Below are positions 12,236 through 22,503 of a stretch of 22,503 nucleotides of DNA, in pieces. Made by a program: the position numbers and the translations under genes. The DNA is from a virus (lineage: Duplodnaviria > Heunggongvirae > Uroviricota > Caudoviricetes). How positions within the stretch are numbered: the stretch's first letter is position 1; the number at the start of each line of letters is the position of its first letter. Where the stretch lies: positions 1-22,503 of IMG/VR virus record IMGVR_UViG_2698536485_000016. One strand, 5' to 3'. The notes under the pieces are model-generated. The model was not told the origin of the DNA. It searched no databases and was given only the letters and a program-made list of their open reading frames with translations.

Positions 12236-12936
12236 TGGCGGATTCGAATCTCAATGTGCCGGTAATCATCCAAGCTACGCGGCCCGATACATCAGTCCTT
12301 CCACGCAATATCTTCTCGCAGTCGTATCTGCTTTACGTTATCGCACAGGGCACTGATGTTGGTAACGTGGCTAACAAGGCCAACGAGGCCGGACAGGGCG
12401 CTTATGATGCACAGGTCAGGAACGATGAGCAGGATGTTATTCTGGTCGATCACGAAGAAAGAATTCGTCAGCTCCGCATCGACGTAGACGACCATGAAAT
12501 CCGTATTACTGCAAATACCAATGCAATCGCGTCGCTGGATGTCAGACTAACCACGGCTGAAGGTGAAATAGTCACCTTGCAGGCTGATGTCAGTGCTCTT
12601 GATGGTAGAGTGACGGAGGCTGAAGGAAATATTTCTGCATTGCAGGACGATTACGTATCGAAAACAGCAACAGCAACACAATCGCTGGCATCCCCCCTCA
12701 ACGTAACAACATCCTATTCAGTCGGCGGCACCAAGGTTATCGGTGCTCGCCAGACAGGATGGACAGCGGCAACCGGAACGGCACTCCTCGGCGCATTCAA
12801 CGCTAACCAGTCATACACTGTCGGCACTACGTACACGCAATCCGAAGTCTCAGCACTCGCTACAGGTTTGCAGCAGGCGCGGCAGCGTATTCTGGCGCTT
12901 GAAACGGCACTTAGATTACATGGGCTGATTGACTGA
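12235..12936 (+). CDS. Tail needle / plug protein (P22 gp26-like)
   Basis: 233 aa; conserved N-terminus ([37 protein letters not shown]) and heptad-repeat coiled-coil core; start overlaps the upstream stop (TAATG). Confidence 0.9.
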
Positions 12937-17477: not shown

Positions 17478-17738
17478 TTATCTGCTGTCTTTTTTATATA
17501 GCTTCTTGAGCGTATCAAAGACAATTTTCTTAACCATATCAGATTGTTGTTCTGCCATACGCTCTGCATCGTCAATGTAAACTGATGCAGAGCTTTGTTT
17601 ATCCAATGATTCCTCAATCGCTGCAATTATCTCTGAGTTCAGCGACCTGTTATTCATCTTCGCACGCTGCTTAATTTTCGCGTGGAGTTCATGCGGAAGT
17701 CTCAAGTGAAACTGCGCCTCGTCGTATTTGCTGTACAT
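17478..17738 (-). CDS. mnt: Mnt-like repressor (ribbon-helix-helix, Arc/MetJ superfamily)
   Basis: Translation (FHLRLPHELHAKIKQRAKMNNRSLNSEII...DAERMAEQQSDMVKKIVFDTLKKLYKK) aligns along its length with P22 Mnt as I remember it. ATG at 17738 chosen (SD GGTGAGG upstream); an upstream ATG at 17771 is possible. Confidence 0.8.
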   Translation of the reverse strand: MYSKYDEAQFHLRLPHELHAKIKQRAKMNNRSLNSEIIAAIEESLDKQSSASVYIDDAERMAEQQSDMVKKIVFDTLKKLYKKDSR

Positions 17739-17869
17739 CCTTGATGCCTCACCAGTTGGGTGGAATGGCATCGTAACCTACTGGATAAATACTCAATAAT
17801 ACCATTTTGGTATGCAATCACATCATGGTTGCATCATATCATTCGTCTGGAGCAATGAAATGTCAGATA

Positions 17870-18370
17870 TCACCTACTCAACAGATGGTCAGCAACCATG
17901 TTTGCTGCCTTATAAGCTATAGCAGCTTCATCAATGGTGTTGAATCTCCCAAGGGTTATGTTTTTACCTGAGACATTTATCTGAGCTTGCCATTGATTTC
18001 TGGCTTGACAGAAAGTTACCCCCTTGATCCCAGCATTGCTATTTCGAGGTCCGACATTTAATGCATTTACGACTCTGCTGACATCCCTAAGGTTTGAGAT
18101 TGCGTTATTTCTTCTGTTTCTATCAATGTGGTCAATCTCTTGTTTGGGCCATTCGCCATATACATACAGCCAGGCAAGTCTATGTGCAAAATATCTTACG
18201 CCATCAATATTAATTGCGTTATATCCATAAGAAATTGTGCCAGCAACTTTCCCAACAGCACCTCTGGCGCTTAATTTCTTTTTCCAAGTGAAAATTCCTG
18301 TTTCTTTATTGTAATCGAGAACCTCCATAAGGCGCTCCCGAGTTACTACCTCGTGACGTCTCTTACTCAT
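17870..18370 (-). CDS. HNH endonuclease with C-terminal AP2-type DNA-binding domain (homing-endonuclease-like)
   Basis: HNH_3-like motif ([38 protein letters not shown]) followed by an AP2-like segment (GIKGVTF...WQAQI...[22 protein letters not shown]). ATG at 18370 with strong SD (GGAG, 6-nt spacer) chosen over the TTG start at 18412 in the ORF track. Confidence 0.85.
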
Positions 18371-18392: not shown

Positions 18393-20060
18393 ATGCCAGA
18401 ACAATTATACAACGTTGTTGTTTCACAACCAAGTCAGTTATTTACTTTAGCTCGCTCGTTTAAAGCAAATGCCAATGGCAAAATTTATATCGGAAAAATT
18501 GACACTGATCCGGTAAATCCTGAAAACCAGATCCAGGTTTATGTGGAGAATGAAGACGGCTCTCACGTTCCTGTTTCGCAACCAATCATCATTAACGCTG
18601 CTGGTTACCCTGTATATAACGGACAGATTGCCAAGTTTGTAACCGTGCAAGGCCATTCTATGGCTGTTTATGATGCGTACGGCGCGCAGCAGTTTTATTT
18701 TCCGAATGTACTGAAGTACGACCCGGATCAGCTTGAGCAGCGTCTTGCATCATCAATAGGTTCTTCCATGGTTGGCATTACCGATGGAAGGACAGTGCAT
18801 GATTTTATATCTGTTGATGACTATCAGAGAATTGGTGATATCCGTGGTTACGGGGCGACAAATGAAAACGTAAACCCTGTCAACATTGCCGTTGCCACAG
18901 GTGAGGCCAATGGTCTACTGAAGGTGCCTAATGGAGTATGGAGCGGTAATTTTGAGTTAAAAAATAAAACTAGCATAACTGGTGAATCCATAACATCAAC
19001 AGTTGTTAACGTTCCTATAAACACGATCGGAATAAAGCCTGAGGGCTCTGACGTTAGAGGGATTACTATATCAAACATGAATCTCCAAGTTAACGGATCT
19101 GTTGCTGGCGGTCCTCCTGTTGGTAGCGGGGTCGGAATAGACATGTCTTTTTGCGGAAAGGCAGTTAACTGTGAGTTTAACAACCTTTATCTCGATTTCT
19201 TTGATATTGGTTACAACGCTGGATATGCTGATTTTTCAAATATTTATAACAATATGAGGTGCAATAACAACCGAATCGGGATTAACCTATCCAGTAACGG
19301 AACAATTATTCAAAACGTGTTCAATGGGTGTTATGTTGCAAACTGGACGGCTTATGCCGTGAAAGTTTCTGGCGCTAGCAACCAGATATTCAACGCGCTT
19401 AACATGGGGCATAACGGATCCGCCAATGCTTATTTCCTGCAGATAGATACGAACTCAAGAGGAATCATATTTAATCAACCTAACTTCGAAATGGACGTTG
19501 CAAACGGGAAAATTACAGCAGGAGGCCAGGCTATCGTGGTCGCCTCTAGTTCTGAGGTTACATTTAACTCCCCGACATTCAACAGGGTTAACGCTGCAGG
19601 GGCAAATGCCTACCTGTTCCGGGTTAGGGGTAACGCTGTAGTACGTATAAACGACCCTCAAATCTACAACGACGATGGCACAATAGGTCACCTAATTATC
19701 AGTGATGAAGCTGTTGTTTATCTCAATGATCCAAATCGAATATTCACAGTAATTACTATCCAAGGTAATGGGAGGCTAATACGTGTTGACGAGAAGATAT
19801 CAAACTCCCCTAACTATACAAACATTCTTACTTTAAAATCTGGAGACATAATTAACTTTGGATTCTATGCAAGATATGCAATGGCGGTTCCAGATTTTCA
19901 CTCCAATACTATGCCATCACCATTCAAGTACGCAGTGAACTTTGACACTTACCATAGCAGTGGAACTGCCATTGCTCGAGTGTATGATACAACTACAGGA
20001 AATGGAGTATCAAACATCAATGTTACATGTTTCGTACAGGCGTGGAGAGAGGATAGATAA
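18393..20060 (+). CDS. Tailspike protein: conserved P22-type head-binding N-domain plus divergent parallel beta-helix receptor-binding domain
   Basis: N-terminal ~115 aa ([53 protein letters not shown]...) match the P22/Sf6 tailspike particle-binding domain; the remainder is Asn/Gly/Val/Ile-rich repeats typical of a beta-helix. Start could be 18384 or 18393. Confidence 0.85.
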
Positions 20061-20090
20061 AAATAGGGCGGTCTCCCCGCCCTATTTTTA
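20061..20090. terminator. Bidirectional intrinsic terminator between the convergent tailspike and acyltransferase genes
   Basis: Perfect 9-bp stem atagggcgg / ccgccctat with a 5-nt loop, flanked by AAAA on the left and TTTTT on the right. Confidence 0.7.
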
Positions 20091-21155
20091 TACTGTAACT
20101 AAATTGTCTTCATTTCTATTGGTTTTTCTTTTTAATTTAAGAAAATGTATTTCAAAAAGATAGTATGACGCAGTTGATACTATATATGCGATAGCAAACC
20201 CACATGCTATTATCACAGCATTATTGTTTACTCCAAACAAGGAGGCCATTTTGTTTGCAATTGAAAAACACAGCAAATGCCACATATACAAACCATAACT
20301 TATCTTTCCTGTAAATGTTAATGGCTTTAATGATAATGCTTTTGTTATTATTTGTTTTTTCCCTAGCACACTCCACTTGTAAATGAAAAAAATTGCAGAT
20401 GAAAAAATCATCCCAAACGCTGTAAACATATACCAGCATTTCCCAGCCCAATCTACAGGGTTCCAAAAAGCATTAAGACCAACAGAATTTATTCCATTAA
20501 GAACCAGCCCAACACCTGCTATAAAAGTTAAAAATCCTGATTCATATGCGTACTTCTCATCTTTTATCTTTGAAAACAGAGCGCCAAGAACTAACATGTC
20601 AATGCAACTGATAAGAGTTACATTTACAATGTATGGGTTTCCATCAGTGATTTGAAATATAAAATATCTTGATATACTTGATGTTATTATTAGTATAATA
20701 AAAATCAGATTCATATTCTTTTTGTTTATGAAAAATATGAATAGAGGCCAAAGCCAGTAAAATTGTTCTTCCACTGCAAGAGACCAGGTGTGCCCCAAAA
20801 TTCCAGGTGTTGTAACATTTATTCCTATATAATAGTTTTGTAGATAAGTTATAAACCACAAATAACCATCCGTTGGTTTCCCAGTTGCAATTAGAAGAAT
20901 AAAGTTAACAAGTAGGTAAGCATAAAATAACGGGAATATTCTAAGCGATCTATTTATAAGAAATCGTTTAATATAGTTACTAAAACCAGAGTCTTTATCC
21001 TCGATAAGGATTGAGGTAATTAAGAAACCAGATAAGCAAAAGAACAGCGGAACTCCAGACCAACCAAGAGAAAATCCTGAAACTTTGGCATGAAAAAGCA
21101 TTACAATGAGCACCGCAATACCTCTCACACCATCTAAAGATTGTATATGTTTCAT
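20088..21155 (-). CDS. Integral-membrane acyltransferase family 3 protein (O-antigen acetylase-like, probable lysogenic conversion gene)
   Basis: 355-aa polytopic membrane protein; N-terminal motif LDGVRGIAVLIVMLFH and multiple hydrophobic segments typical of the family; AT-rich; located between tailspike and integrase as in serotype-converting phages. Confidence 0.85.
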   Translation of the reverse strand: MKHIQSLDGVRGIAVLIVMLFHAKVSGFSLGWSGVPLFFCLSGFLITSILIEDKDSGFSNYIKRFLINRSLRIFPLFYAYLLVNFILLIATGKPTDGYLWFITYLQNYYIGINVTTPGILGHTWSLAVEEQFYWLWPLFIFFINKKNMNLIFIILIITSSISRYFIFQITDGNPYIVNVTLISCIDMLVLGALFSKIKDEKYAYESGFLTFIAGVGLVLNGINSVGLNAFWNPVDWAGKCWYMFTAFGMIFSSAIFFIYKWSVLGKKQIITKALSLKPLTFTGKISYGLYMWHLLCFSIANKMASLFGVNNNAVIIACGFAIAYIVSTASYYLFEIHFLKLKRKTNRNEDNLVTV

Positions 21156-21345
21156 GCTAAAAATCCATATTCTACGGGAAGCGGGAGTCTATCAGATTTA
21201 GTTGATATTATCTATATAGACTAACTAGATGTTATCTAGCGATTGACTGTCATTCTATGTATATTTTCACGCCTGTTATCATATAACTTGATCATTTGGT
21301 ATTTTGAGAGATTAACTTCTTTTGTTTCCAGTGTGGCTATGCCAA

Positions 21346-22503
21346 TTACTCCACCTTTTCATCAAGCCAGTCCGCCCACCACTGCATCATTTCTCTGCGT
21401 TTATCGAGATACTGAGCATGGTTGTAAATTCCGCGCACAGATCCGCCGTTGGCATGTGCAAGTTGCACTTCAATAGCGTCAGCAGGCCATTCGTGCTCGT
21501 TCATAATCGTGCTGAATTCATGCCTGAATCCGTGACCGCTTTCCAGACCCTCATAGCCGATTTGTTTAATCACAAGCAATACCGCGTTCTCGCAGATTGG
21601 CTTCTTCTTATCGTTGCGCCCGGCAAAAACAAACTCTGATACTGGTTTAGTGATGGAGCTTAGCGTAGTGAGAAGTTCAACCACCTGGTCTGACATAGGA
21701 ACAACATGAATCTTGCGTCCCTTCATCACATTGGCGTCGATGGTGATAATCCTGTTTTCAAAATCGACGTTCTTCCATAGCATGGAACGAAGCTCTTTTG
21801 TTCTGAGGGCTGTGTAGCGTAAAACTTTGGTCGCAATGAGCGATACGATACTTCCTGAAAATGTTGCCAGTGCTTTGTTAAATGCCGGGATCTGGTCTGC
21901 AGGAAGAAACGGGAAGTTCTTCTTGCGGTATCCTTTCATGGCGTCTGCAAGGTCAGGTGCCGGGTTATATTTAGCCCTTCCGGTGACAATAGCGTAACGG
22001 AAAACCTCGCCGCATCTTCTGCGGGCTTTGTTGGCTCGCTCCATTGCACCGCGATCTTCAAATCTGCGGATTACTTCCAGCAGTTGCATCGGCTCAATAT
22101 CCTGAATTTCAAGGCCGCCGATGATAGGTAAAATGTCGTCATCAAACATTTTTGCAAGTTCATTTGCATAGCCTACTGACCAGACTTGCTTCTTGTGCTC
22201 GTACCATTCCTTGTAAATCGCACTAAAGGAATTGTTGTTAGACGAAGCCTTTTTCGCTTTTACCGGATCGATGCCAACCGAGATGTCTTTCCTCGCAGTC
22301 CATGCTTTATCCCTTGCCTCCTGCAAAGTCATAAGCGGGTATTTTCCGACGGTCAGGATTTTCTCCTTACCGTCAATCTTGTAGCGAAGCTGCCATACCT
22401 TTTTCCCGGATACAGGGACATAAAGGTACAGGCCATTACCATCGAGTAGGCGGTATGGTTTTTCTTTCGGCTTAGCTGCTTCAATCTGCTTAACGGTGAG
22501 CAT
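21346..22503 (-). CDS. int: Tyrosine integrase, P4-like (N-terminal DUF4102-type arm-binding domain)
   Basis: N-terminus MLTVKQIEAAKPKEKPYRLLDGNGLYLYV typical of the family; C-terminal catalytic motifs HGFRHEF and RGIYNHAQY. The start codon occupies 22501-22503, so the upstream region is outside the window. Confidence 0.9.
   Translation of the reverse strand: MLTVKQIEAAKPKEKPYRLLDGNGLYLYVPVSGKKVWQLRYKIDGKEKILTVGKYPLMTLQEARDKAWTARKDISVGIDPVKAKKASSNNNSFSAIYKEWYEHKKQVWSVGYANELAKMFDDDILPIIGGLEIQDIEPMQLLEVIRRFEDRGAMERANKARRRCGEVFRYAIVTGRAKYNPAPDLADAMKGYRKKNFPFLPADQIPAFNKALATFSGSIVSLIATKVLRYTALRTKELRSMLWKNVDFENRIITIDANVMKGRKIHVVPMSDQVVELLTTLSSITKPVSEFVFAGRNDKKKPICENAVLLVIKQIGYEGLESGHGFRHEFSTIMNEHEWPADAIEVQLAHANGGSVRGIYNHAQYLDKRREMMQWWADWLDEKVE

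What the first reader, a model, noticed from the sequence alone, without database searches (positions are those of the whole stretch)
18393..20060. Chimeric, compact tailspike with a swapped receptor-binding domain
Only the first ~115 residues resemble the P22/Sf6 head-binding domain. Downstream of roughly nt 18740 the gene becomes visibly more AT-rich and encodes a short beta-helix-like domain; the whole protein (about 555 aa) is shorter than the P22-family tailspikes I remember. This looks like a module exchange that brought in a different host-glycan specificity.
Basis: partly seen in the sequence, partly recalled or inferred. Interest (0 to 1): 0.6.

Follow-up and report, generated by a model that had tools for sequence, protein, structure and literature searches.

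The report
Swapped tailspike and O-antigen acyltransferase cassette
This is an ordinary but clear case of a P22/Sf6-like E. coli prophage that kept the part of its tailspike that plugs into the virion and swapped in a rare, uncharacterised sugar-cutting domain, together with the neighbouring surface-sugar acyltransferase gene.

Summary

The exchange is shown by comparison instead.

- **Recent exchange:** this block is 99.4-99.5% identical in three other prophages whose flanks are only 93-97% identical.
- **Exchange across phage types:** the block is collinear at about 70% with a Trabulsiella prophage whose spike has a T7-type N-terminus.
- **Other anchors:** the RBD family also occurs behind three further N-terminal anchor types.

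This is a new member of a known kind. The exact protein is already in NCBI as WP_062874747.1 under a generic name. Glycan specificity and enzymatic chemistry remain untested.

The parts
18393..20060 (+). Tailspike gene, 555 aa including stop. The protein is identical to NCBI WP_062874747.1, 'phage head-binding domain-containing protein [Escherichia coli]'.
   Evidence: ORF list; gene call on the window's own contig; exact-sequence cluster look-up.
18393..18731 (+). Head-binding (virion-anchor) domain, aa 1-113, ending in the KYDPDQ hinge.
   Evidence: PF09008 E 3.4e-64 over aa 1-113. Matches Sf6 gp14 at 2e-61 and P22 gp9 at 5e-47 in the PDB. 86-95% nt identity to phages and E. coli prophages.
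18732..18902 (+). Linker with the 'LASSxGASxVG' motif plus a short helical cap, aa 114-170. This is the start of the shared RBD family.
   Evidence: Alignment A1; helices at aa 135-168 in the models.
18903..19787 (+). Right-handed parallel beta-helix, aa 171-465, about 11 coils. It carries the invariant NFE motif (E366) and the family-invariant residues D268, D271, D280, R289 and D368.
19788..20057 (+). C-terminal beta-domain, aa 466-555. It is a sub-module that exchanges independently of the helix.
   Evidence: Six strands in the model, with lower pLDDT of 60-85. 38% identity over the last 80 aa to the C-terminus of Dickeya Limestone-type spikes. P0004 versus P0005: helix 98% identical, C-terminal domain 47%.
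20088..21155 (-). Convergent integral-membrane acyltransferase (355 aa, 32% GC), a putative O-antigen O-acyltransferase and the second gene of the cassette.
   Evidence: PF01757 E 5.6e-25. PHROG O-acetyltransferase / O-antigen acetylase hits at 7e-39 and 4e-35. 71% and 73% aa identity to the genes that follow the RBD homologues in L004 and L007. Same position as oac in Sf6 but only remotely related to it.
18735..21352 (.). The exchanged block: RBD, 27-bp spacer, acyltransferase and its upstream region. It is bounded by the spike hinge and the integrase stop codon.
   Evidence: Homology to Sf6 and to the closest E. coli prophage stops at 18731/18734 and resumes at 21353/21354. The block is 99.43-99.54% identical in L011-L013 against flanks of 93-97%. 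It is collinear at 69.6% over 2,348 bp with the Trabulsiella prophage and at 72% with L004.
21346..22503 (-). IntS-type tyrosine integrase. This is the conserved right-hand flank of the cassette. The prophage sits at tRNA-Arg (argW) next to yfdC.
   Evidence: Pfam; contig context; annotated equivalent in E. coli mip270_04.
17870..18370 (-). HNH-AP2 endonuclease gene, divergent from the spike gene and starting 22 bp from it. It is an optional insert, not part of the cassette.
   Evidence: PF13392 and AP2; phrog_99 at 1e-63. Present beside spikes with other RBDs in 234 E. coli genomes. Absent from L002, Sf6, L011 and L013.

Best explanation
The gene encodes the tailspike of an Sf6/HK620-like (Lederbergvirus-type) prophage integrated at argW in E. 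coli.

Residues 1-113 are the conserved adaptor that docks the spike trimer on the tail hub. After the KYDPDQ hinge the protein switches to a receptor-binding module from a rare family: a linker and cap, a parallel beta-helix of about 11 coils, and an 85-residue C-terminal beta-domain.

I infer that this module binds and cleaves the host O-antigen. It is most likely an endoglycosidase whose active site lies on the helix face or in the inter-subunit groove. E366 of the invariant NFE motif is the prime catalytic candidate.

The module was not acquired alone. It travels with the convergent acyltransferase gene as a 2.6-kb two-gene cassette. In E. coli P22-like prophages the cassette is exchanged by homologous recombination between the conserved head-binding sequence on the left and the conserved 3' end of int on the right.

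I also infer that in the lysogen the acyltransferase acylates the same O-antigen so that the spike no longer uses it. That would be seroconversion and superinfection exclusion, as with oac of Sf6.

Shown here: the domain boundaries, the fold, the cassette boundaries, its younger age relative to its flanks, and its presence in other phage types. Inferred: trimer formation, O-antigen as the substrate, hydrolytic chemistry, and the functional pairing of spike and acyltransferase.
For: - **Anchor domain and junction:**
- **Cassette boundaries:** non-homology to Sf6 and to the E. coli mip270_04 prophage runs exactly from 18735 to 21352.
- **Cassette age:** 12-15 mismatches in 2,618 bp against L011-L013, compared with 93-97% identity in the flanks.
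- **Cassette in other backgrounds:** a single collinear alignment covers RBD, spacer and acyltransferase in a Trabulsiella prophage with a PF03906 spike N-terminus and in a divergent P22-like phage. The acyltransferases are 73% and 71% identical.
- **O-antigen as target:** in every temperate context examined except L005, the RBD homologue is followed by an O-antigen-modification locus. These are an acyltransferase (window, L004, L007, L011-13), gtrABC (L009, L016), gtr-like genes (L006) or a degraded gtr (L017).
- **Precedent:** Sf6 has the same order of spike (endorhamnosidase), oac and int. Published work states that Lederbergvirus spikes track host O-serogroup and may be followed by an O-antigen modification gene (PMC10408124).
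- **Conserved acidic residues:**
Against: - No enzymatic, binding or serotype data exist for any member of this RBD family.
- The window protein itself does not reach any Pfam, PHROG or NCBIfam glycosidase or lyase model.
- Only a monomer was modelled, so the trimer and the site geometry are unverified.
- Only one acidic residue (E366) is invariant across the wider family. A classical two-carboxylate hydrolase site is therefore not established.
- L005 (RBD 51% identical) has no modification gene after its spike, so the pairing is not obligatory.
- The acyltransferase substrate is inferred only from family membership and gene position.
Confidence: 0.75

Rival explanations
1. The RBD targets a capsular or other surface polysaccharide (K-antigen, colanic acid, ECA) rather than the O-antigen. 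In that case the acyltransferase would modify that polymer instead.
Against: Four relatives of the RBD are followed by gtr genes, which belong to O-antigen glucosylation systems. The gene order is that of Sf6 spike-oac-int. The second-best structural neighbour, CBA120 TSP2, comes from an O157:H7 phage.
Confidence: 0.12
2. The beta-helix is a polysaccharide lyase (beta-elimination at a uronic acid) or a non-catalytic binder, not a hydrolase.
Against: The best structural matches are spike hydrolases and depolymerases. Within the close family five acidic residues are invariant. The characterised P22-family spikes in the comparison set are glycosidases (for Sf6).
Confidence: 0.2
3. There was no exchange. 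The distal part simply diverged quickly in place from an Sf6/HK620-type RBD under diversifying selection.
For: The fold class is the same as that of the Sf6, P22 and HK620 spikes. There is no compositional break at the junction.
Against: Identity to Sf6 falls from 88% (aa 1-113) to undetectable at a single point. The same distal block at 99.5% lies behind head-binding alleles that differ by 3-7%. The block is collinear with prophages of other tail types and other genera. The length differs by 68-187 aa from the compared spikes.
Confidence: 0.02

Closest known systems
Sf6 gp14 tailspike (endorhamnosidase) with the oac - int gene order
   Same: The head-binding domain is 88% identical at the amino-acid level. 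The position after the gp16-like ejection protein is the same. The gene order is the same: spike, convergent O-antigen acyltransferase, integrase, with attachment at argW. The RBD fold class is also a beta-helix.
   Different: There is no sequence similarity beyond residue about 124. The protein has 555 aa against 623. The acyltransferase is only remotely related to Oac (31% over 78 aa). An HNH gene is inserted upstream.
CBA120 TSP2 (PDB 5w6p / 6w4q; spike of an E. coli O157:H7 phage) and Acinetobacter phage Belisarius gp86 depolymerase (24qi)
   Different: Sequence identity is only 16%. Neither is detectable by sequence or profile search against the PDB. They have different N-terminal anchors, are larger proteins (575-757 aa) and come from lytic phages.
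Modular tailspike exchange among E. coli phage genera (Pas et al. 2023, PMC10408124)
   Same: One RBD subtype occurs behind the anchors of different phage genera. Lederbergvirus and Uetakevirus prophage spikes track the host O-antigen. An O-antigen modification gene may lie behind the RBP.
   Different: This RBD has no match in the 50,697-record phage collection beyond a weak hit to its last 80 aa. Here the downstream acyltransferase is shown to move with the RBD as one collinear block.
Pectate-lyase-superfamily beta-helix domain (Pfam PF12708, Pect-lyase_RHGA_epim)
   Same: Distant sequence relatives of the RBD (24-28% identity) carry PF12708. The fold matches many members.
   Different: The window protein gives no PF12708 hit even at E up to 1.

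Membership tests
P22-like (Lederbergvirus-type) tailspike | N-terminal head-binding domain (PF09008) | tested here: met
   E 3.4e-64 over aa 1-113, against a curated cut-off of 24 bits. PDB sequence matches to Sf6 and P22 spikes.
P22-like (Lederbergvirus-type) tailspike | Gene located at the end of a P22-type late operon, after the gp7/gp20/gp16 ejection-protein genes | tested here: met
   P22_gp7, Inj_translocase and Phage_P22_gp16 lie immediately upstream. The region is 95-97% identical at the nucleotide level to the Sf6 and HK620 structural genes.
P22-like (Lederbergvirus-type) tailspike | Distal right-handed parallel beta-helix receptor-binding domain | tested here: met
P22-like (Lederbergvirus-type) tailspike | Homotrimer | not testable with these tools
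   The structure tool predicts single chains only.
P22-like (Lederbergvirus-type) tailspike | Endoglycosidase activity on the host O-antigen | not testable with these tools
   Supported only by context (modification genes downstream) and by conserved acidic residues.
Pectate-lyase-superfamily beta-helix (PF12708) | Sequence match to the Pfam model above the gathering score | tested here: not met
   No hit at E up to 1. Only relatives at 24-28% identity match the model.
Pectate-lyase-superfamily beta-helix (PF12708) | Three-stranded right-handed beta-helix fold | tested here: met
Phage O-antigen O-acyltransferase (Oac-like, PF01757 Acyl_transf_3), for the neighbouring gene | Acyl_transf_3 membrane domain | tested here: met
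   E 5.6e-25, 88.5 bits against a cut-off of 31. PHROG O-acetyltransferase / O-antigen acetylase families.
Phage O-antigen O-acyltransferase (Oac-like, PF01757 Acyl_transf_3), for the neighbouring gene | Acylates the O-antigen and thereby blocks the cognate phage | not testable with these tools
   Inferred from having the same position as Sf6 oac and from co-transfer with the RBD.

The most novel reading that the evidence does not exclude
The RBD and the acyltransferase may form a matched 'key and lock-changer' cassette that moves as one unit between unrelated temperate phage types and between enterobacterial genera. Diverged copies of the same RBD family, each paired with a different O-antigen modifier (acyltransferase or gtr), would then recognise differently decorated versions of one O-antigen backbone. 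The sequencing run that yielded this window also holds a second prophage whose spike has a 52%-identical RBD followed by a degraded gtr locus. That could be a snapshot of such competition between co-resident prophages.
Probability: 0.35. Interest if true: 0.45.

Novelty: new member of a known kind. Interest (0 to 1): 0.3.

Why it matters
Tailspike RBDs largely set the host range of O-antigen-dependent phages. They are used to predict serogroups and to engineer phages or detection reagents.

This RBD family is compact and has no profile in Pfam, PHROGs or NCBIfam and no solved relative detectable by sequence. Only 14 clusters at 90% identity were found among 5.8 billion proteins, and only 23 representatives among 1.84 billion. 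It would therefore add a specificity that is not yet catalogued.

The co-transfer of the RBD with its neighbouring acyltransferase gives clean natural breakpoints: the KYDPDQ hinge and the stop codon of int. These could guide spike swapping. It also suggests that serotype-converting genes should be considered together with the spike when inferring host range from prophages. The phenomenon itself is well established, so the general importance is modest.

Tried and rejected
- **Composition as evidence of import:** rejected. There is no GC or GC3 step at the junction.
- **Sequence searches of the RBD:** nothing in Pfam, PHROGs or NCBIfam. Nothing in the PDB with the single sequence or with a 13-sequence profile.
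- **Nucleotide searches of the RBD:** megablast and sensitive blastn against 5,426 complete E. coli genomes found no match beyond the anchor. tblastn against 50,697 phage records gave only a weak match to the last 80 aa.
- **Literature:** a search for the protein's accession numbers found no paper.
- **Related acyltransferase in E. coli LF4-1 (69% nt):** I checked whether the ORF beside it is a remnant of this spike. It is not.
- **Full-length AF2 model:** it gave an unusable N-terminal domain (pLDDT below 50 for aa 1-139, only 4 informative sequences). That domain is assigned by sequence instead.
- **Promoter and terminator scans around the gene:** at or below shuffle expectation, so uninformative.
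- **Host O-serogroup:** I could not determine it, because only about 10 kb around each gene copy is retrievable.
- **Mapping of conserved residues:** I could not place them on the model, because coordinates are not exposed.

Full report
**Observation**

The window is the late region and right end of a P22-like prophage. The genes run terminase, portal, scaffold, coat, gp4/gp10/gp26-like, gp14/gp7/gp20/gp16-like, an Mnt-like repressor, an HNH endonuclease, the tailspike, an acyltransferase and an integrase. It is 95-97% identical at the nucleotide level to Sf6, HK620 and many E. coli prophages over most of its length. On its own contig it sits next to yfdC, mlaA and fadL, the argW attachment site.

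The flagged ORF is intact: 18393-20060 on the + strand, 555 aa. Its product is identical to NCBI WP_062874747.1, which carries the generic name 'phage head-binding domain-containing protein [Escherichia coli]'. It belongs to a 90%-identity cluster of 59 sequences seen on more than 100 draft contigs.

**What holds and what does not**

- **Head-binding domain.** Residues 1-113 match PF09008 at E 3.4e-64. They align to Sf6 gp14 and P22 gp9 chains in the PDB, and the alignments end shortly after KYDPDQ.
- **Extent of nucleotide similarity.** At the nucleotide level, 27 phage records and 1,063 of 5,426 complete E. coli genomes match only the first 340-364 nt of the gene. The remaining 1.3 kb has no match in those genomes even with sensitive blastn.
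- **Length.** The protein is shorter than Sf6 (623 aa), P22 (667 aa) and the spike of the closest E. coli prophage (742 aa).
- **Composition.** The claimed shift to AT-richness is not there. GC is 42.5% before the junction and 41.8% after it, and GC3 is 40.7% versus 38.9%. The conspicuous AT-rich stretch is the next gene, at 32% GC.

**The distal module**

It has no Pfam, PHROG or NCBIfam family. It has no relative of solved structure detectable by sequence, whether with the single sequence or with a profile. It is rare:

- 14 clusters at 90% identity among 5.8 billion proteins.
- 23 representatives at E up to 0.001 among 1.84 billion.
- 5 loci among 2.9 million viral contigs.

AlphaFold2 with 13 homologues gives a confident model of aa 117-555 (mean pLDDT 83, most of the helix above 85). 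It has a short helical cap, about 11 coils of three short strands each (aa ~171-465) and a six-stranded C-terminal domain with lower confidence.

**Evidence for exchange**

- **Same RBD behind different anchors.** The RBD family, aligned from the 'LASSxGASxVG' linker onward, is fused to PF09008 (P22-like), PF03906 (T7 tail-fibre N-terminus), PF18668 (TSP1/gp66-type), PF12571 (tail-collar fibre) and an epsilon15/phiV10-like N-terminus with no Pfam match.
- **Different phage backgrounds.** The genomic contexts are P22-like prophages (L004-L006), a prophage with a T7-type spike N-terminus in Trabulsiella odontotermitis (L007), a multi-spike myovirus-like cluster (L008), siphovirus-like prophages in Enterobacter cancerogenus and a related sample (L009, L016), and an epsilon15-like prophage (L017).
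- **Exact boundaries.** Against Sf6 and the closest E. coli prophage, homology stops at 18731/18734 and resumes at 21353/21354, immediately past the integrase stop codon.
- **A younger block inside older flanks.** Three IMG/VR prophage contigs (L011-L013) carry the block 18735-21352 at 99.43-99.54% identity (12-15 mismatches in 2,618 bp). Their head-binding segment is 93.2-97.0% identical, their integrase 96.4-96.7% and gene 16 with mnt 97.3% (Fisher p 1e-10 to 1e-17). The block has a younger common ancestor than its flanks. That is the signature of recent recombination at both edges.

**The unit is two genes**

The block contains the RBD, a 27-bp spacer and a convergent 355-aa Acyl_transf_3 gene.

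- **Trabulsiella prophage (L007).** It aligns to window 18834-21163 as one collinear 2,348-bp segment at 69.6%, covering both genes.
- **Divergent P22-like phage (L004).** It aligns over 18415-21156 at 72%.
- **Similar divergence of the two genes.** The acyltransferases are 73% and 71% identical, close to the RBDs at 77% and 84%.
- **Sf6.** It has the same order, spike (endorhamnosidase), oac, int, but its Oac is only remotely related.
- **More distant RBD clades.** These are followed by gtrABC or gtr-like genes instead. One (L005) has nothing between spike and int.

**Mechanism (inferred)**

The anchor domain docks the trimer on the tail. The beta-helix binds and cleaves the O-antigen so the virion can reach the outer membrane. 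In the lysogen the acyltransferase alters that O-antigen. This follows from the known biology of P22, Sf6 and HK620 and from the published correlation of Lederbergvirus spikes with O-serogroup, including modification genes behind the RBP (PMC10408124).

For the active site, the close family has invariant D268, D271, D280, E366 and D368. Across relatives down to about 20% identity, only E366 in an NFE motif stays invariant among the acidic residues, together with R289 (nearly invariant), Y314, N337 and Y407. Hydrolase versus lyase is therefore open. I favour hydrolase, because the nearest folds are spike hydrolases and depolymerases. A capsule target is a lesser alternative.

**Comparison and novelty**

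By the tests that could be run, this is a member of the P22-like tailspike class: anchor domain, genomic position and beta-helix fold. Its RBD is a subtype that is uncatalogued and uncharacterised. Modular RBD exchange and spike-adjacent seroconversion genes are both well known. The specific addition here is that the two genes move together, with sharp boundaries, across phage types and genera. I rate it a new member of a known kind, of modest interest.

**Limits**

- The host serogroup could not be obtained.
- No function was tested.

Noticed in passing
L017 6001-7956 (contig ERR14151211_101); window = contig ERR14151211_124: The sequencing run that yielded the window also contains a second prophage. 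It looks epsilon15/phiV10-like from the spike N-terminus and has Glyco_hydro_19 lysis genes. Its 651-aa spike has an RBD of the same rare family, 52% identical. That spike is followed by gtrA, a truncated gtrB (196 aa) and a 150-aa ORF, which looks like a degraded gtr operon. I could not determine whether the run is a single isolate.
   Followed up: partly
window 12444-12935: The C-terminal part of the tail-needle gene (gp26-like, 233 aa here against 282 aa with a knob in Sf6 and the closest E. coli prophage) is a second non-homologous patch in an otherwise 97%-identical structural region. A second host-contact module has therefore also been exchanged.
   Followed up: no
window 17870-18370 (- strand): An HNH-AP2 endonuclease gene starts 22 bp from the spike start codon and is divergently oriented. 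The same insert (98-99% nt) lies beside spikes with other RBDs in 234 complete E. coli genomes. It is absent from prophages that carry the identical RBD cassette (L011, L013). L005 and L012 have a different HNH (42% aa) in the same place. It may be a homing element that could stimulate recombination at the spike 5' end, but this was not tested.
   Followed up: partly
alignment A1, aa 466-552 of the spike (window 19788-20048): The 85-residue C-terminal domain recombines independently of the beta-helix. P0004 and P0005 are 98% identical in the helix but 47% in this domain. P0005 and P0008 are 57% and 86% respectively. The last 80 aa are 38% identical to the C-terminus of Dickeya Limestone-type spikes.
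   Followed up: partly
L012 5351-6416: In one of the three near-identical cassette copies the acyltransferase reading frame is split near codon 106, an apparent frameshift. This could be a sequencing error or inactivation of the modifier.
   Followed up: no
L010 4833-5963 (E. coli LF4-1, NZ_CM141450.1): A related acyltransferase (57% aa, 69% nt) sits next to intS and argW in a prophage remnant riddled with IS1 and ISEc33, with no spike left. The modifier gene can evidently outlive the phage.
   Followed up: partly
window 17478-17771 (- strand): An Mnt/Arc-type repressor gene is present without the arc-ant pair seen in L005. The immI-like region is reduced here.
   Followed up: no
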